A stretch of 34,041 bases of DNA from a virus. Taxonomy: Duplodnaviria; Caudoviricetes. Each line of letters starts with the position of its first letter. Position 1 is the stretch's first letter. The notes below the pieces were generated by a model. That model worked only from the letters and a program-made list of their open reading frames with translations. It had not been told where the DNA came from and did not search any database. Position numbers and translations under genes: made by a program. The DNA is taken from IMG/VR virus record IMGVR_UViG_3300006188_000292, positions 1 to 34,041 of that record, one strand, 5' to 3'. Of this stretch, positions 273-31,555 are shown in pieces.

Positions 273-302
273 CAAAGGTAGAACCGTTTTATAGATAAAC
301 AA
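273..302 (-). promoter_or_regulatory. Bacteroidota housekeeping promoter (-7 TACCTTTG at 280-273, TTG ~19 nt upstream)
   Basis: Matches TAnnTTTG consensus just upstream of ORF 1..249. Confidence 0.55.
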
Positions 303-342
303 TCCAGTAATTCAAGATTTAACATTTATAGGTTAATAGATA
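296..342 (+). promoter_or_regulatory. Phage promoter-like motif TAAACAATCCAGT-N27-ATAGATA
   Basis: TAAACAATCCAGT also at 28908 and 29312 with similarly spaced ATATATA. Confidence 0.5.
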
Positions 343-7845: not shown

Positions 7846-10626
7846 TTATCCAATCTTAGCTCTATTTTGAATATTAGCCACTTTGTTTTGTGTTGATGTA
7901 ATATCACTTTCAACCACATATACACGGTTACTATTAGCCGATTGTGGTGTATTAGCTTGGTTGTTATTCAACCCAACATTATTTAATGATGGTGCATTGA
8001 ATGATGTTGAGCTACCACCGGACGGAATGGCTGGGGCTGATGAACCACTATCACCACCACCGCTATCGGGGTTGAATTTCTTAGATGCTATGGCAGCTAT
8101 TTGGAGCGCACCAGCAGCACCAGTTATTGCAGCCAGGATTATATTATATGGTGGTGGTGCTGAACCTAAGGCAGCAGTTATACCTTGTGCCGTATTAATG
8201 GCAGCGTTTACTATACCTAAAGCCTTTTGTCTTTTGAATTGCCTTTTTTGCACTTCAACCGATGCTTTTTCACCTTTCTTTAGGTTCTGATTTTCACCTT
8301 GTGTTATCAGGTCATTCAATGCACCTAATGCACCAGCAGCCGATTGAGCAATTTGTAAGCCTTGGTTAGCACTTGCCAACTTGGCATCTAATACAGCTTT
8401 CTGACTATCTATTTCCTTTTGCTTGATTTCATCACTAGTTCTTTCCTCTACATCTTTTCTTTGCCCAGCATATTTAGCCACAATGGCAGCCTTATCACTT
8501 TCTGACAAATCTTTAGAAGAAAGCTCCTTTTGTTCTTGTTCAGTAATAAGCTGAATTTGTTGGTCGGCTTGTGTCTTTAACGCCTGTATTTCTAAATCCT
8601 TTAGTTTGTTAAGTAAAGCAACACGCCCACTAACACGTAGGTTACCTATCTTTTCATCATTGGCTAATTCAATAGCAGCTATATCCGCTTTATTTTGCAC
8701 TGCCTGTAATTCGGCTGCATTGGTCTTGTCTCTAAAACCATCTCTTAAAGCCTGAATATCATTTAACGCTTTAGCCTCAATAGCTTTCTTTTCTTCCTCG
8801 GTCTTGGTTTTGTCCTGTATATCAATTGCAGTCTTAACCTTAATTTGGTTTATTTGTGCATCTAATAACTCTCTATCACTCTTAGACTGTAATACATTCA
8901 AATCAGCAATAGCCTGATTTCTCTTATTAGTTTGAGCAATTACAAAATCGGTGTAGTCCTTTTCCTGTTTCTCTCTTTCAGTATTTAAAGCTGTCAGGTC
9001 TTTTTGTTCCTGTAACCTTAAATTATCTCTCTGTTGCTTAGTGTAGCCAGCTCTAGCAATTTCCTTATCATAATAAGCTTTAGTAAGTGCTTCCTGTTGG
9101 TCAAGATTAGCAGCTTGTTTATTCAACCTATCGGCACTAATTGTAGTGTCCAGTGTTGCTATATCCTGATAGTTCTGCTTTAACAGGCTCAATTGAGCAT
9201 CATAAGCTTCTTTAGCTTTTGCCTTGGCTTTCTCAAATGCTTCTTTCGCAGCCTCGGTTCTAATCTTAGCTATTTCAGCCTGTGTAGCCTTTTCATCGGA
9301 AATTTTAAAGGCATCACTGGCTGCCTTAGATGCAGCTTCATCAGCTTCCTGTTTCTTTATTAAGTCGTTATATTCCTTTGAACCAACCTTAGCAGCGTTT
9401 AATTGAGCATCATATTTAGATTGCGTATTTTTTGCCGTTTCTATTCTTTGGTTAGTAAATTCTTCCTGTCTGTTTTTGGCATCAAATTCAGCTTGGGCAA
9501 TAGCTCTTTTATTCTTATCCTTGATAAGATTAATATTGTTTTGCTCTGTCTTTTTTGCCCAGTCTTTTTGTTGGTCTAATATTGCCTTATTGGCTTTAGC
9601 TTCAATAGTCAGTTCATCGTCCTTTAGTTTCTGATAGGAAACTTTTAATTCATCAAGGTTTTTCTTTTCATCATCAGTTAATTCACCATTAGCTCTTTTT
9701 AATTCTTCTAACTTTTGAATTTGCTGATTGACATTATTAGTAAGTGCCTGTGTCTTTTGTGTTTCTAATATTGCAGTAGATTGACCTGTAGCAGTAGCCA
9801 AAGCAATTTCGGCATCGTATCTAGCGGTAATTGCATCAGCCTCTTTTTTCTTATTCTCTAGAAACTTCTTTGTCTGCTTCTCGCCCTCAATATTGGTTAG
9901 TCCAATAGCATCGGTAAAGGCAGTAACGGCATCAGTAACAAATTTTATTACTTGACCGATTGCCTGAAATGTTGCGCCAATTAAACCGCCCGCAGTTTTT
10001 AACTCATCAAACTTGGCTACTATTAATGCTATAACAGTTGCTAGTAAGAATATTGGATTTACTTTAAGTGCATCACCAAGCTCTGTAAAACTCGTTTTAA
10101 CTGCTTTAAGGGCACCTGTAAAATCACCGCCTAATGCTTGCTTGATAGAACTACCAAAAGAAGAAAAGCCACTTTGTAATGATGACAGTCTGTTTTTCAG
10201 ATTATCACCAATAGATGTAAGTATAGTTTTGCCTAACTCACTAATTGATTTAGTAAGTTCTTTTAGGTCATTGCCTACATTCTTTCCTGAAAGGTCTTTG
10301 AATGATTGTGTAAATAGCTTTACAGAGCTGGCAGCTTTGCCAAAATCCAAAGTGGAAATATTATCCTTTACTAATGCAAATGACCCAGCTAATCTTTCAA
10401 CTGGTTCACCTGTTACTGACTTGGTTGCCTCGGCAATATCTTTAATCTTATCCTTGGCAGCACCAGCCTCAATTGTAAGTCTCTTTACAGCTTCGGGGTT
10501 CTTATCCCCAAATTCAATCATTAAGCTATTAATGTCTTTAATAGCTTTCTTTAATTCACCTACGGTCTTAGCGGAATCTTTGGCGTCAATTGCCGTTTGT
10601 ATTTTTATTTCTAACGAATTGTCCAA
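7846..10626 (-). CDS. Tail tape measure protein
   Basis: 926 aa Ala/Lys/Gln-rich helical; NPIFLLATVIAL segment; C-terminal VYVVESDIT motif. Confidence 0.85.
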   Translation of the reverse strand: MDNSLEIKIQTAIDAKDSAKTVGELKKAIKDINSLMIEFGDKNPEAVKRLTIEAGAAKDKIKDIAEATKSVTGEPVERLAGSFALVKDNISTLDFGKAASSVKLFTQSFKDLSGKNVGNDLKELTKSISELGKTILTSIGDNLKNRLSSLQSGFSSFGSSIKQALGGDFTGALKAVKTSFTELGDALKVNPIFLLATVIALIVAKFDELKTAGGLIGATFQAIGQVIKFVTDAVTAFTDAIGLTNIEGEKQTKKFLENKKKEADAITARYDAEIALATATGQSTAILETQKTQALTNNVNQQIQKLEELKRANGELTDDEKKNLDELKVSYQKLKDDELTIEAKANKAILDQQKDWAKKTEQNNINLIKDKNKRAIAQAEFDAKNRQEEFTNQRIETAKNTQSKYDAQLNAAKVGSKEYNDLIKKQEADEAASKAASDAFKISDEKATQAEIAKIRTEAAKEAFEKAKAKAKEAYDAQLSLLKQNYQDIATLDTTISADRLNKQAANLDQQEALTKAYYDKEIARAGYTKQQRDNLRLQEQKDLTALNTEREKQEKDYTDFVIAQTNKRNQAIADLNVLQSKSDRELLDAQINQIKVKTAIDIQDKTKTEEEKKAIEAKALNDIQALRDGFRDKTNAAELQAVQNKADIAAIELANDEKIGNLRVSGRVALLNKLKDLEIQALKTQADQQIQLITEQEQKELSSKDLSESDKAAIVAKYAGQRKDVEERTSDEIKQKEIDSQKAVLDAKLASANQGLQIAQSAAGALGALNDLITQGENQNLKKGEKASVEVQKRQFKRQKALGIVNAAINTAQGITAALGSAPPPYNIILAAITGAAGALQIAAIASKKFNPDSGGGDSGSSAPAIPSGGSSTSFNAPSLNNVGLNNNQANTPQSANSNRVYVVESDITSTQNKVANIQNRAKIG

Positions 10627-23334: not shown

Positions 23335-23994
23335 TTATATATTAGTTTTCAGTTCTTTTTTTAGGTGCTTTAATGTTTTCTGTACATATAGCCTTACTGT
23401 CTGATAATTGACACCGGATATTTCTTCTATCTTTTGGTAGGTTAAATCTTTGAAGTAGTATAGTTCAAACATTATTTTACAGTGCAATCCTAATTCAGGT
23501 GGTAGGTGTAGTAGTAGGTTCTTTATCTTGGTTATGTTATCATCTTTCCACTTCTGATGTTGGGCATATAATACTTCTTCGGGTGTATCAGCCAGCTTTC
23601 TTAATGTTTGGTGTATTAGTTCATCTTGTTGTTCTGACAATTCATCCACGGTAAAATCCTTTAGGTGTTCTCTGTAATTATCAATGTTCCATAATTGGCA
23701 GGTTACTACTTTCGGGTTGCGGAATTGTTTATAAAAGGATGATGTACTACTGGCAAATTGGTTATTGATTATTCCAGCGCAATAGTGTTCTATACCTTTT
23801 ATGCCTTTTTCATTGAATACTCTTAATAATGTCGCTTCTTTAATTGAGGAAACACAGACTAAGAAATGTGACTTAGCATCATCATAATAAAAGGAATATT
23901 TATGCTCACCGACTGATTTCTTTAGTATGGTTTTTAGTGTAGCATTGATATAATCACTCTGATAGATGTAGGTTAGGATTTCTTGTCGGTTCAA
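23335..23994 (-). CDS. Phage RNA polymerase sigma-factor-like protein (sigma70 region 4 HTH)
   Basis: C-terminal MFELYYFKDLTYQKIEEISGVNYQTVRLYVQKTLKHLK; 219 aa ECF-like size. Confidence 0.7.
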   Translation of the reverse strand: MNRQEILTYIYQSDYINATLKTILKKSVGEHKYSFYYDDAKSHFLVCVSSIKEATLLRVFNEKGIKGIEHYCAGIINNQFASSTSSFYKQFRNPKVVTCQLWNIDNYREHLKDFTVDELSEQQDELIHQTLRKLADTPEEVLYAQHQKWKDDNITKIKNLLLHLPPELGLHCKIMFELYYFKDLTYQKIEEISGVNYQTVRLYVQKTLKHLKKELKTNI

Positions 23995-24885: not shown

Positions 24886-25124
24886 AGTGTTGTTCTTAAT
24901 TTTTTGTTGCACACCTGACTGCAACACCTTTGTAATAGTGTGTAATGTCGTACACTAATGGGTGGTTTGTTACTTGGTCAGAATAGTTTAGTGCTTTAAA
25001 TACTACTCTCATACTTTGCTTGTCTAGCAATAATACAAGGTCAGTAGGTTCTACTACATCATAATTGATTGTTGCTAAATATTTATCAATGTCCTGTATT
25101 GTCATAGTGTTGTTCTTAATTTTT
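24882..25124 (-). repeat. 23-bp direct repeat AAAAATTAAGAACAACACTATGA at 24882-24904 and 25102-25124
   Basis: Exact match by reading; each copy contains a start codon. Confidence 0.9.
24896..25105 (-). CDS. Hypothetical protein, 69 aa
   Basis: First gene after motif promoter; flanked by direct repeats. Confidence 0.7.
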   Translation of the reverse strand: MTIQDIDKYLATINYDVVEPTDLVLLLDKQSMRVVFKALNYSDQVTNHPLVYDITHYYKGVAVRCATKN

Positions 25125-25128
25125 ATAC

Positions 25129-25170
25129 TGTATATATTCTTGCACTAACTATTGTTTTAAAAAGAGTGGA
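25129..25170 (-). promoter_or_regulatory. Phage promoter-like motif TCCACTCTTTTTAAAAC...GAATATATAC
   Basis: Near-identical to motif at 29319-29358; heads the leftward operon containing the sigma factor. Confidence 0.6.
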
Positions 25171-25237
25171 CTTTTTATTCATTTTGTCTATTAATAAAAA
25201 AGGTGGGCAATTGTGCGCCTTTTCTTAACTTACAGTT

Positions 25238-25826: not shown

Positions 25827-26537
25827 ATGGAAAGATTAAGTCTACCTGATGTAGATGACCGTATATTAGTTCTACAAGTTGCCCTATTAGTTGAAAACTA
25901 TATCACATCATTTTTAGGTAAGCTCCTAGATATTGATGATACTGATAACTCAAAATCACTTGGTAAAAATGGCATTTCATTTCACTATAAAGTGATGTTG
26001 CTAATTGACATTGGCGCTTTAAATGATGGTGATAGGACAAAATTTCAAAAATTTATGGAAGTGCGTAATACTTTTATGCACGATATGCGGGCCACTAACT
26101 ATACCGAATGTGTGGCCCGTATAGATGGATTGGGAAAGTGGTTAGAAAAAACCTATAAAGCCCCAGTATATAACAAGAAAGAGAAAATAACAGATGAGGA
26201 ATTAATAGAAGACCGTGTAAGGCAACTGGCTAATGAGGTAATAGCACTCACATTTACCATTTTACAAAAGCTACGTGACAAGTTTGATAAGACTGTTGAA
26301 GCTGACCAGCGAAGAAGAGAAGTGGATGCTTTTAAAGAAACAATTACAGAGATAAAGGAGTTCTTGAATAATTATGTACAGAAGTATATTGATGATAAGG
26401 AAATGATTAAGCCTGAGAATTTGGGTAAACTTGGTGACACTATTAGCCGAATGTTTTACAGTGGTGCAGCAAGGCGAATTTTTAAAAAAGGTGAGAAGGT
26501 ATTAGTTGTTCCTGAAAGAAAACCATCTAAAGAATGA
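25827..26537 (+). CDS. HEPN-motif protein (MtlR-like), paralogue 2 with longer helical C-terminus
   Basis: SFHYKVMLLIDIGAL...FMEVRNTFMH; ATG at 25827 preferred to TTG 25821. Confidence 0.6.
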   Translation: MERLSLPDVDDRILVLQVALLVENYITSFLGKLLDIDDTDNSKSLGKNGISFHYKVMLLIDIGALNDGDRTKFQKFMEVRNTFMHDMRATNYTECVARIDGLGKWLEKTYKAPVYNKKEKITDEELIEDRVRQLANEVIALTFTILQKLRDKFDKTVEADQRRREVDAFKETITEIKEFLNNYVQKYIDDKEMIKPENLGKLGDTISRMFYSGAARRIFKKGEKVLVVPERKPSKE

Positions 26538-27386: not shown

Positions 27387-27420
27387 ATAAAAAGAGCCGA
27401 TAATTATCGGCTCTTTTTAT
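27387..27420. terminator. Bidirectional terminator, perfect 34-bp palindrome
   Basis: ATAAAAAGAGCCGATAATTATCGGCTCTTTTTAT between convergent genes. Confidence 0.9.
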
Positions 27421-27817: not shown

Positions 27818-28120
27818 CTAATGTTTCTTAACTCCACTACTTAGCCCGTACTGATATACTGGTTCATTAGCCTTGTTTTCTTCTACCAACATATTTTCAG
27901 CACGCAAATAATTCTCGGTGCCCTTTCTGAAATAGTATTTAAACTTAGTCTCTTTCGGATTGATACCGTATTGCTTACCCACCTTAGCCGTTATCTCTTT
28001 AAGAATGTCCTTATTAAGTTTAATAAATTCATTTACTGCCATCTTATGTGGGAATTGCAGCACCTTGTTATGATTGTGTAGGTGTGCTTGGAATATGTCG
28101 GGTATTAAATGCGGGTTCAT
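27818..28120 (-). CDS. Hypothetical protein
   Basis: Clean ORF. Confidence 0.65.
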   Translation of the reverse strand: MNPHLIPDIFQAHLHNHNKVLQFPHKMAVNEFIKLNKDILKEITAKVGKQYGINPKETKFKYYFRKGTENYLRAENMLVEENKANEPVYQYGLSSGVKKH

Positions 28121-28211
28121 AACCTAAAATTAGTAGGCGGTTGAATGTGGTGATGCTTTGTCATACAAAATGTGAATATCTTTTTATCTTGTATCGGTAA
28201 ATCAGTCATCT

Positions 28212-28676
28212 ATGCTTAATAAAGACCTGTTACAAATTTGTGTAGCCGTATTTGCCGCAGTATTGGCAGCCAGTATTACCACATACTTATCAATAAGGAC
28301 TAGAAAGAATGAATGGATTACCATATTAAGGAATGAAGTGGCTGGATTTATGGCTGCTACAAGTAATCCAAAAGATACTTACACCTACTTAAAACATAGA
28401 GCTGCCGTAGAACTATTACTTAATCCCAAGAAAAAAGAGCAACAAGACCTAATTGAATCTGTCTCCGCCATGTCCATTGCTTTAGAGGCAATGCAAATGG
28501 AAGTGGGAAATTTGAACCGTGAAAGATATAATAACGCACATAAATTGTTTAATGAGTCTAGTGCTTTGGCGATAACACAATTCAGAATAGTAGTAAAAAG
28601 AAAAATGAGTACGTGGTTTTACAGAAGTGTTTACACTCGTATTGTAAAGCCTAAAACGGTAAAGGATATGATGTAA
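28212..28676 (+). CDS. Protein with N-terminal transmembrane helix and helical body
   Basis: ICVAVFAAVLAASITTYL followed by R..WI..LR. Confidence 0.7.
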   Translation: MLNKDLLQICVAVFAAVLAASITTYLSIRTRKNEWITILRNEVAGFMAATSNPKDTYTYLKHRAAVELLLNPKKKEQQDLIESVSAMSIALEAMQMEVGNLNRERYNNAHKLFNESSALAITQFRIVVKRKMSTWFYRSVYTRIVKPKTVKDMM

Positions 28677-29310
28677 TGCGGTTCAATACTCTTACTGCTT
28701 TGTTGCTACGCTGGGGGCTACGCAAGTCGCTATTAAGATTGGTTGAAAGGTCTATGGGAGTATAAGAATGTATATATAGTGTATAGTATATATCATAGGT
28801 CTTGCAGATCCTGCTGAACCAAACGTAAACACTGCATCTCCGAGCAATCAAAAAATCTTACCTACTTCACGAAGAACCGCATAAATACAGGAAATGGTTT
28901 TTCAACATAAACAATCCAGTCTTTCTAAAAACTATTTAGCAACCCGATATATAAGATGTAGGGTCTTAATCGGGTTCACCCCTACATCATACTTAGATGA
29001 TGTGAATGAAATGACCGGTATCGTAGCTTAGAGCCTTGGGATTGATTAATAACTTGCCCAAGGAAATAGATGGATGAGTAACCAGTGGGCGCAATGTTCT
29101 AAACCTAACAACGCCCGACCAGCAAGTTTAATAAACTACTCATTGCCCGCAGGAATAGGGGATACATAGCTTTTGATGCACAGTATAATTAATAAGCCAG
29201 TAAAGATTATACGCTCTAGTAGGTAAGAATGTCAAATCAAGTAACAGAGCAATCTGTTTTTAATGTCTGAAATTCTTACTTGCTGGGGAATAAAGGTTCT
29301 ATACCTACCC
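28676..29310 (+). ncRNA. Candidate large structured non-coding RNA (family unknown)
   Basis: More than ten helices of 5-17 bp, nested multibranch layout, G-U pairs and a GCAA tetraloop consistent with + strand; no credible ORF. Confidence 0.6.
28908..28955 (+). promoter_or_regulatory. Phage promoter-like motif TAAACAATCCAGT-N26-ATATATAAG inside the non-coding region
   Basis: Same motif and spacing as 29312-29358. Confidence 0.55.
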
Positions 29311-29311
29311 T

Positions 29312-29358
29312 TAAACAATCCAGTCTTTTTAAACTTCTTTTTATGCGGGAATATATAC
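29312..29358 (+). promoter_or_regulatory. Phage promoter-like motif TAAACAATCCAGT-N26-ATATATAC
   Basis: Repeated motif directly before ATG 29362. Confidence 0.6.
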
Positions 29359-29361
29359 ACT

Positions 29362-29649
29362 ATGAAACAGTTTAACAAAGAAACCATTGATGACATAAGA
29401 ATATATCTGATTACTAAATGGGGTATAACATTAGAACCTCTAATAGAAGATAACCAAATAATAGATAACTACTATTTACTAAGCTGGCAAAATGATGATG
29501 AACATTTCCAGTTCTTACTTTATCCCGACCTACTTTATATAGACAGCTCTAAGTGTGATTTTATGATTGCTGAATACCGCCCATACCAATTTGATAGCAC
29601 TGATGATATAATAGCCCTGCTAGATGATGAAATGAATTATTACGTGTAG
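29362..29649 (+). CDS. Acidic hypothetical protein (start revised to 29362)
   Basis: ACACTATG context after promoter motif; upstream extension overlaps RNA helices. Confidence 0.65.
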   Translation: MKQFNKETIDDIRIYLITKWGITLEPLIEDNQIIDNYYLLSWQNDDEHFQFLLYPDLLYIDSSKCDFMIAEYRPYQFDSTDDIIALLDDEMNYYV

Positions 29650-29650
29650 A

Positions 29651-29887
29651 ATGAAAAAGAAAATGATAGCCGACATAGAACTAATTAAGAGTTGCCAAAA
29701 TAGAAGTCAACTATGTGAGTATGCCGATATGAATAAGTGGCGAAAGATGGCACCGCTATTTTTCCTGTTTAAAAAGTACCTGAAAGAATTAGGTATAGAC
29801 TATTGGAGTTATCCACTAAATGAGAATGAACAACGCCAAAGGTTGATACAGGTTAGAGCTGAAAGAATTAATCAAATACTATCATAG
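29651..29887 (+). CDS. Hypothetical protein, 78 aa
   Basis: Abuts upstream gene. Confidence 0.6.
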   Translation: MKKKMIADIELIKSCQNRSQLCEYADMNKWRKMAPLFFLFKKYLKELGIDYWSYPLNENEQRQRLIQVRAERINQILS

Positions 29888-29895
29888 TATAGTGG

Positions 29896-29903
29896 TAAAT
29901 TTG
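29896..29903 (+). promoter_or_regulatory. Bacteroidota -7 box TAAATTTG
   Basis: TAnnTTTG 17 nt before ATG 29921. Confidence 0.55.
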
Positions 29904-29920
29904 CAGTCTAAAATATTCAT

Positions 29921-30568
29921 ATGGAAGATTTGAAAAAACACTTAGAGAGCACAAAGCTAATAGTCTTTACAGCTCAAGAATGTATGAAGATTGTAGATAG
30001 CTTAATGAAGACTGAAACTGATAGGGATAGGAGATTTATAAAACGAAATGGTTACTTTTCATTTGATGCTAAGATACATTGGCGTACCGTTGTAATGGAG
30101 CTTTGCAAACTATATAACCACACTGAAACATTTAATCTTAAAACATTGCTGTGGAAATTAGAAAGTGAACATCCTGAATTAGGCTTTACTACCGACCAGT
30201 TAAGAGGCTGGCAATTGAAAATCAAAGCACTTAATAAGGCGATAGATAATTTGCTTGAACAAAGAAATGGTGTCTATGCCCACTTAGATGAAAATTTTGA
30301 TACAGTAGCTTATACCGCTACAAGACCACAAGCCAATGCATTAATCTTAGTAGCACAAGAAATAGTAGATACTCTACACAATAGAATAATAGGAAGTCAC
30401 TTAGATATAGCTGATGTAACTGGTTCTCCAGTACTAGAACTTGAAAAGGTAATCAATGGCTTGCAAAAGAAATGGGAATATGATAGAGAGTTTTACCGCT
30501 CACATTGTAAAGATTTAGGGATAGACCCTGATACCATAGAAGATTTACGCTTAGAAAAAACCTCTTAA
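29921..30568 (+). CDS. HEPN AbiU2-like protein
   Basis: VVMELCKLY...FNL..LL and RNGVYAHLD motif. Confidence 0.65.
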   Translation: MEDLKKHLESTKLIVFTAQECMKIVDSLMKTETDRDRRFIKRNGYFSFDAKIHWRTVVMELCKLYNHTETFNLKTLLWKLESEHPELGFTTDQLRGWQLKIKALNKAIDNLLEQRNGVYAHLDENFDTVAYTATRPQANALILVAQEIVDTLHNRIIGSHLDIADVTGSPVLELEKVINGLQKKWEYDREFYRSHCKDLGIDPDTIEDLRLEKTS

Positions 30569-30641
30569 AAATCTTATGGTCATTTTTGGTAATATGAAGG
30601 TAAAGGGCTACTTTACACCCTGACAAAACAAATAATGAATT

Positions 30642-30878
30642 ATGAAAAGAACACTAACACTATTAACGCTTGCAACATGTCTGATTGCTTGCAACAAAGA
30701 ATATCAATGCACTTGTTCACTGAACAAGCAAACGACTAACATAACAGTTAAGGCACGTAACAATACAAAAGCATCGGTTGCTTGTGATAATATGGGCAAG
30801 TACGATAATCAGACTAGTCAGATTGTGCGCCCTGATGCTCAATACGATGCTTGCACTAACTGGGGTCAAATAAAGTGA
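30642..30878 (+). CDS. Small Cys-rich lipoprotein
   Basis: Signal peptide II MKRTLTLLTLATCLIA-C; additional CxC...C...C. Confidence 0.8.
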   Translation: MKRTLTLLTLATCLIACNKEYQCTCSLNKQTTNITVKARNNTKASVACDNMGKYDNQTSQIVRPDAQYDACTNWGQIK

Positions 30879-30938: not shown

Positions 30939-31049
30939 ATGAAACGTCTTGACAAATACGATATAGCTATTATAGTCATCCTTGCGATTTTGGTCGCTGT
31001 CCTGACTGTTGACTTAATACTGCTAGCAAAATATATCAGCAAGCACTAA
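30939..31049 (+). CDS. 36-aa transmembrane micropeptide MKRLDKYDIAIIVILAILVAVLTVDLILLAKYISKH
   Basis: Translated by hand; one hydrophobic helix with charged ends. Confidence 0.55.
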   Translation: MKRLDKYDIAIIVILAILVAVLTVDLILLAKYISKH

Positions 31050-31077
31050 AAGTGTCCCAAAACGTCCCAAAATGCGT

Positions 31078-31128
31078 TTTACAGGGTCTTAAACTCATTT
31101 CCTTCTAATGTGTTTAAGACCCTGTAAA
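31078..31128. repeat. Long inverted repeat TTTACAGGGTCTTAAAC/GTTTAAGACCCTGTAAA
   Basis: 17-bp perfect stem, extendable by CATT/AATG; second hairpin at about 31141-31173. Confidence 0.85.
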
Positions 31129-31180
31129 TTATTAGACTAATGCAGGGTCTGACTTTTTCAGTCAGTCGCTGCATACCTTA

Positions 31181-31555
31181 CTACTTCTTAGCAGCTCTCA
31201 TATCATTCAGTATTTGATTAAACTGCCTATCGGCATATTCATAAAAGTCTTTCCTAAGCGGTTCATACTTCTTATACTTCTGAATATCTATGCCGATGAT
31301 GTCCATTACTTCCTCAAACGGTAACTCATAGGTGTCTAGTTTGTGTTTTTTCAATAGATGAATAAACAGTTTTTCCTTTGTTGTTTTGCGCCTGTGTACA
31401 CCATTCGCCATGTTCTGTACCTCTTCATTTATTTGCTCCATAGACCAATCAGGATTTTCATTATGAAGCTTGTCCATTTTTATAAAACGGTCTAATACTG
31501 GCCCGGTAATAATAATCTGATGTGTTGTTGTTTGATTGTTATGCATTATAGTCAA
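31181..31555 (-). CDS. Hypothetical protein
   Basis: Clean ORF. Confidence 0.65.
   Translation of the reverse strand: MTIMHNNQTTTHQIIITGPVLDRFIKMDKLHNENPDWSMEQINEEVQNMANGVHRRKTTKEKLFIHLLKKHKLDTYELPFEEVMDIIGIDIQKYKKYEPLRKDFYEYADRQFNQILNDMRAAKK

What the first reader, a model, noticed from the sequence alone, without database searches (positions are those of the whole stretch)
28676..29310. Candidate ~630-nt highly structured phage ncRNA of unrecognised family
Seen: the largest non-coding gap in the element is dense in helices. These are ATGCGGTTC 28676-84/GAACCGCAT 28874-82 (enclosing ATACTCTTA 28686-94/TGGGAGTAT 28755-63 and TGCAG/CTGCA); AACCCGAT 28941-48/ATCGGGTT 28969-76; CCTTGGG 29034-40/CCCAAGG 29057-63; ATGAGTA 29074-80/TACTCAT 29137-43 enclosing GGGCG/CGCCC and AGTTT/AAACT; GTATAAT 29183-89/ATTATAC 29206-12; and a 17-bp helix 29214-30/29272-88 with four G-U pairs enclosing AACAGA-GCAA-TCTGTT (GNRA loop). 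The non-Watson-Crick pairs read as G-U on the + strand, which argues for RNA rather than DNA palindromes. Known: prophages can carry large ornate RNAs (ROOL, GOLLD), but I see no motif of those, of group I/II introns, tmRNA or RNase P. Inference: a new large phage RNA.
Basis: partly seen in the sequence, partly recalled or inferred. Interest (0 to 1): 0.85.

Follow-up and report, generated by a model that had tools for sequence, protein, structure and literature searches.

The report
Prophage control gap with candidate switch-RNA
The non-coding gap in this prophage holds repeated promoter-like DNA sites around a roughly 350-base stretch that is predicted to fold into competing shapes and likely regulates the genes behind it, so it is probably not one giant ornate RNA.

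Summary
The seven listed stems are present at the stated coordinates, but a single 630-nt ornate RNA is poorly supported. The first ~220 nt fold no better than shuffles (z -1.0) and carry the window's only full host-type promoter match, on the minus strand. A prophage-specific two-part motif sits at 28908 and 29312; two further copies lie in front of operon starts elsewhere. Between the two copies, 28935-29300 folds better than shuffles on + (z -3.1; -2.1 on -), about the top 5% of prophage windows. All three tests were chosen after seeing the sequence. No Rfam match, homologue or RNA run was found, so covariation and expression are untested. Best reading (0.45): a divergent control region with a ~350-nt switch-like leader RNA gating the downstream operon, working like P4 CI or IsrK. 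A DNA-only operator or origin region (0.3) remains open.

The parts
28212..28676 (+). 154-aa ORF upstream of the gap, N-terminal hydrophobic stretch; a real gene
   Evidence: full-length relative at 55% identity, two weaker ones
28676..28765 (+). 29-aa ORF whose ATG overlaps the upstream stop (TAATG); untested
   Evidence: sequence; no Pfam match
28670..28890 (.). 5' third of the gap; not structured beyond shuffles, probably not part of the candidate RNA
   Evidence: z -1.0 (+), -0.9 (-), 100 shuffles
28820..28852 (-). Bacteroidota-type promoter match TTTG-N21-TAnnTTTG facing left; the only full match in the window
   Evidence: host use of the element; atypical inner and following bases
28856..28866 (+). 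box X: 11-nt perfect complement of 29218-29228
   Evidence: 16 of 5000 shuffles; 0 of 106 real chunks
28908..28953 (+). prophage-specific two-part motif, copy with no clear gene behind it; inferred promoter or operator
28941..29003 (+). crossing stems 28941-48/28969-76 and 28955-63/28980-88, plus competing hairpin 28984-90/28997-29003: pseudoknot or two-state switch
29034..29143 (+). middle hairpins 29034-63 and 29074-143; predicted in the fold but not significant alone
   Evidence: pair probabilities 0.97 and 0.62; z -1.0
29183..29288 (+). 3' domain: 29183-212 hairpin and the 17-bp helix 29214-30/29272-88 enclosing a GCAA-loop hairpin followed by a short T run
   Evidence: z -4.5 to -5.0; longest helix in 150 shuffles was 15 bp
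29206..29235 (-). perfect TTGACA-N18-TATAAT; meaning unresolved in this host
29312..29357 (+). second motif copy, ending 4 nt before ATG 29362
29362..30878 (+). downstream rightward genes: 95 aa, 78 aa, HEPN_AbiU2 (29921-30568), 78 aa; inferred target operon
296..342 (+). third motif copy, ending 4 nt before ATG 347
25131..25177 (-). fourth motif copy, in front of the long leftward operon that starts at 25105

Best explanation
The gap carries two copies of a prophage-specific DNA motif and an outward-facing host-type promoter match, and is likely the prophage's divergent control region, with a predicted ~350-nt switch-like RNA (about 28940-29290, + strand) that likely gates expression of the genes from 29362 on. 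Shown in the sequence: the motif, its four positions, the promoter match, the stems and their rarity against shuffles. Inferred: the 28908 copy starts a transcript near 28940-28960; its 5' end toggles between crossing stems; the arm at 29214-30 pairs either with 29272-88 or, in read-through or in trans, with box X at 28856-66; that choice sets termination or read-through, as the P4 CI RNA and IsrK systems do. Which state is 'on' cannot be told from these data.
For: Motif: four copies score 36-42 bits against 13.5 for the next site in the window; left-out copies rank directly behind the training copies, and 1, 0, 0, 0 host sites reach those scores in 8.6 Mb. Three of four copies lie just before operon starts. 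The repeat is discrete, not a segment duplication. 28935-29300: z -3.08 on +, 0 of 60 shuffles. 17-bp helix: 0 of 150, plus-strand preference. Crossing stems: 0 of 400 shuffles, unique in the window, 28 cases in the 4.36-Mb genome. Box X: 16 of 5000, 0 of 106 real chunks. No CI-like repressor family among 43 + 9 ORFs scanned. Upstream and downstream partners for one arm match the P4 seqA/CI/seqC layout described in PMC4825925 (passage).
Against: No homologue, so no covariation. The three rarity tests were designed after seeing the features; with looser settings the crossing-stem baseline rises to 0.026-0.08 per 685 nt. 10 of 180 other window-strand values reach z -3.0 or lower, and coding windows reach -4.9 and -4.6. 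Forcing box X costs 11 kcal/mol against the free fold, and X lies upstream of the inferred start. The crossing stems and box X are pure Watson-Crick, so equally readable as DNA. The first stem overlaps the motif's second part, so it may not be transcribed. No strong intrinsic terminator was found in 28000-30000. A 45-aa ORF (28894-29031) crosses the motif and the crossing stems.
Confidence: 0.45

Rival explanations
1. The gap is DNA-level control sequence only (promoters, operators, possibly the replication origin). The inverted repeats are protein-binding or incidental, and only local hairpins form in passing transcripts.
For: Most stems are strand-neutral. GTAGG/CCTAC recurs five times in both orientations. 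A distant relative has a ~1.1-kb gap with four 21-nt repeats and a repeated 60-nt motif in front of an HTH_36 gene. Another intergenic stretch, 30979-31180, folds far better on both strands (z -7.7/-6.6).
Against: The 3' helix is 10 kcal/mol stronger on + through four G-U pairs. No tandem iteron array and no initiator-family gene were found here. A motif copy with no clear ORF behind it needs a product.
Confidence: 0.3
2. One ~630-nt stand-alone ornate RNA covers 28676-29310.
For: Excess of perfect inverted repeats; whole-region z -2.6; length like ROOL, 581 nt on average (PMC5737381). Folding z-scores can be modest for real large RNAs (own knowledge).
Against: 5' third unstructured and low pair probabilities; promoter-type DNA elements inside it; no ROOL or GOLLD model match; no tRNA nearby.
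Confidence: 0.1
3. The folded transcript is an RNA primer or R-loop for a protein-poor replication origin, in the manner of ColE1 RNA II or T4/T7 promoter-coupled origins (recalled).
For: No replication gene found by Pfam, PHROGs or NCBIfam, while two relatives carry HTH_36-type genes with no tblastn match here. Tandem motif copies precede an AT-rich stretch (GC 0.27-0.28).
Against: Most small ORFs are unannotated, so an initiator may be missed. The motif also precedes ordinary operons. The prophage may be replication-defective.
Confidence: 0.07
4. The gap encodes small peptides with an antisense partner (type I toxin-antitoxin-like) or is a decayed gene.
For: Nine ORFs of 13-45 aa on the two strands, one stop-coupled and one hydrophobic 20-aa ORF behind the minus-strand TTGACA/TATAAT match.
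Against: Six frames read with X at stops gave no PHROGs match at E up to 1 and one Pfam match at E 0.14. The small ORFs scanned match nothing. Bacteroidota primary sigma is reported not to use TTGACA/TATAAT (PMC6847099).
Confidence: 0.08

Closest known systems
Phage P4 immunity region (seqA, CI RNA, seqC)
   Same: Prophage leader in which one RNA segment has complementary partners both upstream and downstream (PMC4825925 passage); no CI-type protein detected here.
   Different: No Rfam match; different host phylum; a ~350-nt unit rather than a small processed RNA; the downstream partner is the other arm of a local hairpin; termination not shown.
Gifsy-1 IsrK
   Same: Prophage RNA with alternative structures acting as both small RNA and leader of a read-through mRNA (abstract and passages).
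   Different: No sequence or model match; no antiterminator gene recognised downstream.
P1/P7 c4 antisense RNA (recalled)
   Same: A repeated target on both sides with a partial complement between: 29039-48 matches the repeat's complement at 9 of 10.
   Different: That match is weak: 45 of 2000 shuffles for the fixed core, 41 of 300 for any 10-mer of the repeat. No Rfam match.
ROOL and GOLLD large ornate RNAs
   Same: Prophage location and gap length (PMC12286853; PMC5737381).
   Different: No model match, no tRNA island, internal promoter-type elements, no covariation data.

Membership tests
ROOL / GOLLD / OLE | match to the Rfam covariance model | tested here: not met
   0 hits at gathering score in the window; none inside the gap at E up to 10
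ROOL / GOLLD / OLE | often beside tRNA genes | tested here: not met
   0 tRNA or tmRNA genes in the window
ROOL / GOLLD / OLE | multi-junction, pseudoknotted structure supported by covariation | not testable with these tools
   no homologue recovered
P4 CI / c4 / IsrK-type antisense immunity RNA | match to family model | tested here: not met
P4 CI / c4 / IsrK-type antisense immunity RNA | complementary targets upstream and downstream of the RNA | tested here: inconclusive
   11-nt upstream partner, 16 of 5000 shuffles; the c4-style complement of the repeat is weak
P4 CI / c4 / IsrK-type antisense immunity RNA | RNA-dependent termination or translation control | not testable with these tools
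   needs transcript mapping and reporters
Group I/II intron, tmRNA, RNase P, ribozymes, riboswitches in Rfam | match to family model | tested here: not met
Retron / DGR / DRT ncRNA | reverse transcriptase gene in the element | tested here: not met
   none among the ORFs scanned
Bacteroidota primary-sigma promoter (28852-28820) | TTTG, 19-21 nt, TAnnTTTG | tested here: met
   consensus from PMC6847099; inner CG is the rarest dinucleotide at host sites, 3 of 521
Bacteroidota SOS boxes (for the repeated motif) | CTAA-N5-TTAG or GGA-N5-TCC | tested here: not met
   no CTAA-N5-TTAG at 0-1 mismatch near the four sites; no GGA-N5-TCC printed for the window; motifs from PMC8565304
Iteron origin with HTH initiator | tandem repeats beside an initiator gene | tested here: not met
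   present in relative G322; not found here

The most novel reading that the evidence does not exclude
A Bacteroidota temperate phage with no recognisable repressor uses a previously undescribed ~350-nt RNA, with a pseudoknot switch at its 5' end and a three-way pairing arm at its 3' end, as its lysis-lysogeny or immunity regulator: a new RNA class unrelated in sequence to P4 CI or c4.
Probability: 0.15. Interest if true: 0.75.

Novelty: new variant of a known kind. Interest (0 to 1): 0.38.

Why it matters
Little is recorded, in the searches run here, on how small Bacteroidota prophages switch between lysogeny and lysis. This one shows no recognisable repressor or initiator gene, a private four-copy promoter-type motif and a candidate RNA switch, all testable with 5' end mapping and reporters. 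If the gap is DNA-only control sequence, the finding is ordinary.

Tried and rejected
Homologue searches, none giving a homologue: blastn in 60 relatives (three hits of 21-35 nt) and 400 phylum genomes (one 36-nt hit), all isolated and beside or inside unrelated long reading frames; phage and plasmid records; exact patterns in viral contigs (for only 120 of about 630 stretches were returned), checked by blastn; one pattern each in metagenome and genome contigs (an identical copy, probably the same strain; a chance hairpin). Single-sequence covariance models found nothing in 16 related-phage loci, 149 family genomes and 6 genus genomes (3' model) or 5 prophage-bearing genomes (5' model, one hit at E 0.09). 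Such models are weak. Protein-anchored searches of viral contigs gave one distant terminase or nothing; the sigma alignment hit 0 of 400 order genomes. No RNA holder listed; this says nothing on expression. Laid DNA contigs showed no variants and no excision joint. Rejected: segment duplication; SOS box; antisense targets elsewhere, best 12 nt in the prophage and none of 16 nt or more in the host; host CRISPR-like array, none printed; my recalled likeness of ORF 31181-31546 to Rep_3 initiators, unsupported (model pLDDT 58). The H8 value 0.0 comes from mistyped coordinates and is void. Six motif strings were absent from the supplements of PMC10690425 that could be read; two zip files and three large files could not be searched and may hold the alignments. 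Four look-ups of earlier findings returned nothing.

Full report
Setting. The window is nearly a whole ~35.7-kb prophage that splits a comM-like gene (the gene name is my reading of the translated flanks). It has a serine recombinase, terminase, portal, tail and holin genes and a sigma-70 region 4 protein. The phage is rare: 7 of 400 family genomes carry a related portal, at 27-33% identity, and the only named matches are Nonlabens phages at 26%.

Observation. All seven stems pair as listed. The whole region folds modestly better than shuffles on both strands, z -2.64 and -2.10. The signal is uneven. 28670-28890 gives z -1.0; 28935-29175 gives -1.4 (+) and -1.7 (-); 29176-29300 gives -4.5 (+) and -1.7 (-); 28935-29300 gives -3.1 (+) and -2.1 (-). 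In a scan of 512 windows of 120 nt (positions 20-30800 only, 14 shuffles) the 3' domain ranked second; rerun on the top 12 with 300 shuffles it gave -4.99, beside a terminator at -5.63 and coding windows at -4.91 and -4.64. Among 90 other 366-nt windows on two strands, 10 of 180 values reach -3.0 and 7 reach -3.5, against -3.3 for the candidate (12 shuffles each). The candidate is well folded for this phage, not exceptional.

The gap is composite. A 22-nt direct repeat at 28908 and 29312 belongs to a two-part motif with further copies at 296 (+) and 25177 (-). Each has an AT(A/G)ATA-type block about 40 nt on. At 296 and 29312 that block ends 4 nt before an ATG, and the 25177 copy precedes the long leftward operon. 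Leave-one-out scoring ranks each held-out copy directly behind the training copies and finds at most one host site as good; two copies are near-identical, which makes their test easy. Flanks of the two gap copies are unrelated. I infer a phage-specific promoter or operator; the reader protein is unknown. The window's only full TTTG-N19-21-TAnnTTTG lies at 28852-28820 on the minus strand, facing ORFs 28120 and 27783, though its inner bases are atypical for this host. A perfect TTGACA-N18-TATAAT lies at 29235-29206 on minus; the genome has 7 such sites at spacers 16-18 against 0-2 per other spacer, too few to interpret.

What exceeds chance. First, the 17-bp helix: longest in 150 shuffles of the gap was 15, and it is 10 kcal/mol stronger on +. 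A third hairpin competes for the second stem's 3' arm; nested energies are -21.4 for the first plus third and -13.3 for the second alone. The second stem reaches probability 0.69 if the RNA starts at 28955. Third, the helix's 5' arm has an 11-nt perfect partner at 28856-66: 16 of 5000 shuffles, 0 of 106 real chunks, but forcing it costs 11 kcal/mol. These tests were built after seeing the features, so the figures overstate.

What it is not. No Rfam family in the gap, no tRNA or tmRNA, no decayed gene detectable, no SOS box. No homologue was found in any collection searched (see Tried and rejected), so covariation is untested. No RNA run was listed.

Relatives. Distant prophages with the same virion genes also have 550-1400-nt gaps. 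In G322 the gap holds four 21-nt repeats and a repeated 60-nt motif before an HTH_36 gene, which reads as an origin and control region. This lowers the weight of gap size as evidence for a large RNA. This prophage shows no initiator or CI-like family among 43 ORFs and 9 more, and no tblastn match to the relatives' HTH proteins among 169 queried. Most of its small ORFs are unannotated, so absence is not shown.

Mechanism. Shown: motif positions, promoter match, stems, rarity. Inferred: the 28908 copy starts an RNA of about 350 nt whose alternative pairings decide whether transcription or translation proceeds into 29362-30878, which include a HEPN_AbiU2 gene. This works like P4 CI and IsrK as described in PMC4825925 (abstract and passages) but is not a member by model match. 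I give it 0.45, a DNA-only region 0.3, the 630-nt ornate RNA 0.1, small peptides or decay 0.08, and an RNA-primed origin 0.07.

Literature seen. Passages of PMC12286853, PMC8565304, PMC6847099, PMC4825925, PMC5737381; part of the supplements of PMC10690425. Six paper searches were seen as listings; none showed a description of this element. Statements on c4, ColE1, T4 and T7 are recalled.

Verdict. Real sequence features, a narrower and less exotic RNA candidate than proposed, no comparative or expression support. Interest 0.38.

Noticed in passing
window 296-342 (+), 25177-25131 (-), 28908-28953 (+), 29312-29357 (+): Four-copy prophage-specific two-part motif in front of operon starts; candidate promoter for the phage sigma-like protein (23335-23994) or operator of an unknown regulator.
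   Followed up: partly
whole prophage, about 1.55 kb left of the window to about 34140: No CI-like repressor and no replication initiator, primase or helicase family detected; either atypical or defective.
   Followed up: partly
window 30979-31180: Strong inverted repeats on both strands (z -7.7/-6.6), including a ~21-bp arm pair, between convergent genes.
   Followed up: no
window 27387-27420: Perfect 34-nt palindrome between convergent genes, a likely bidirectional terminator.
   Followed up: no
window 7940-8059 and 26060-26179: Coding windows with hairpins at z -4.9 and -4.6 on + (tape-measure antisense; accessory gene sense).
   Followed up: no
window 29921-30568: HEPN_AbiU2 gene (E 1.8e-12), a possible defence nuclease, 630 nt downstream of the candidate RNA.
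   Followed up: no
L171:13384-13470 (G322): Four 21-nt iteron-like repeats upstream of an HTH_36 gene in a related comM-type prophage, plus a repeated 60-nt motif with an inverted partial copy.
   Followed up: partly
window 31181-31546 (-): C-terminal half reminded me of Rep_3 winged-helix domains (recalled); atlas, fold and PDB searches gave no support.
   Followed up: yes
host genome G000: Seven perfect TTGACA-N16-18-TATAAT sites, four at spacer 18, against 0-2 at other spacers; unexplained in a Bacteroidota-type host.
   Followed up: partly
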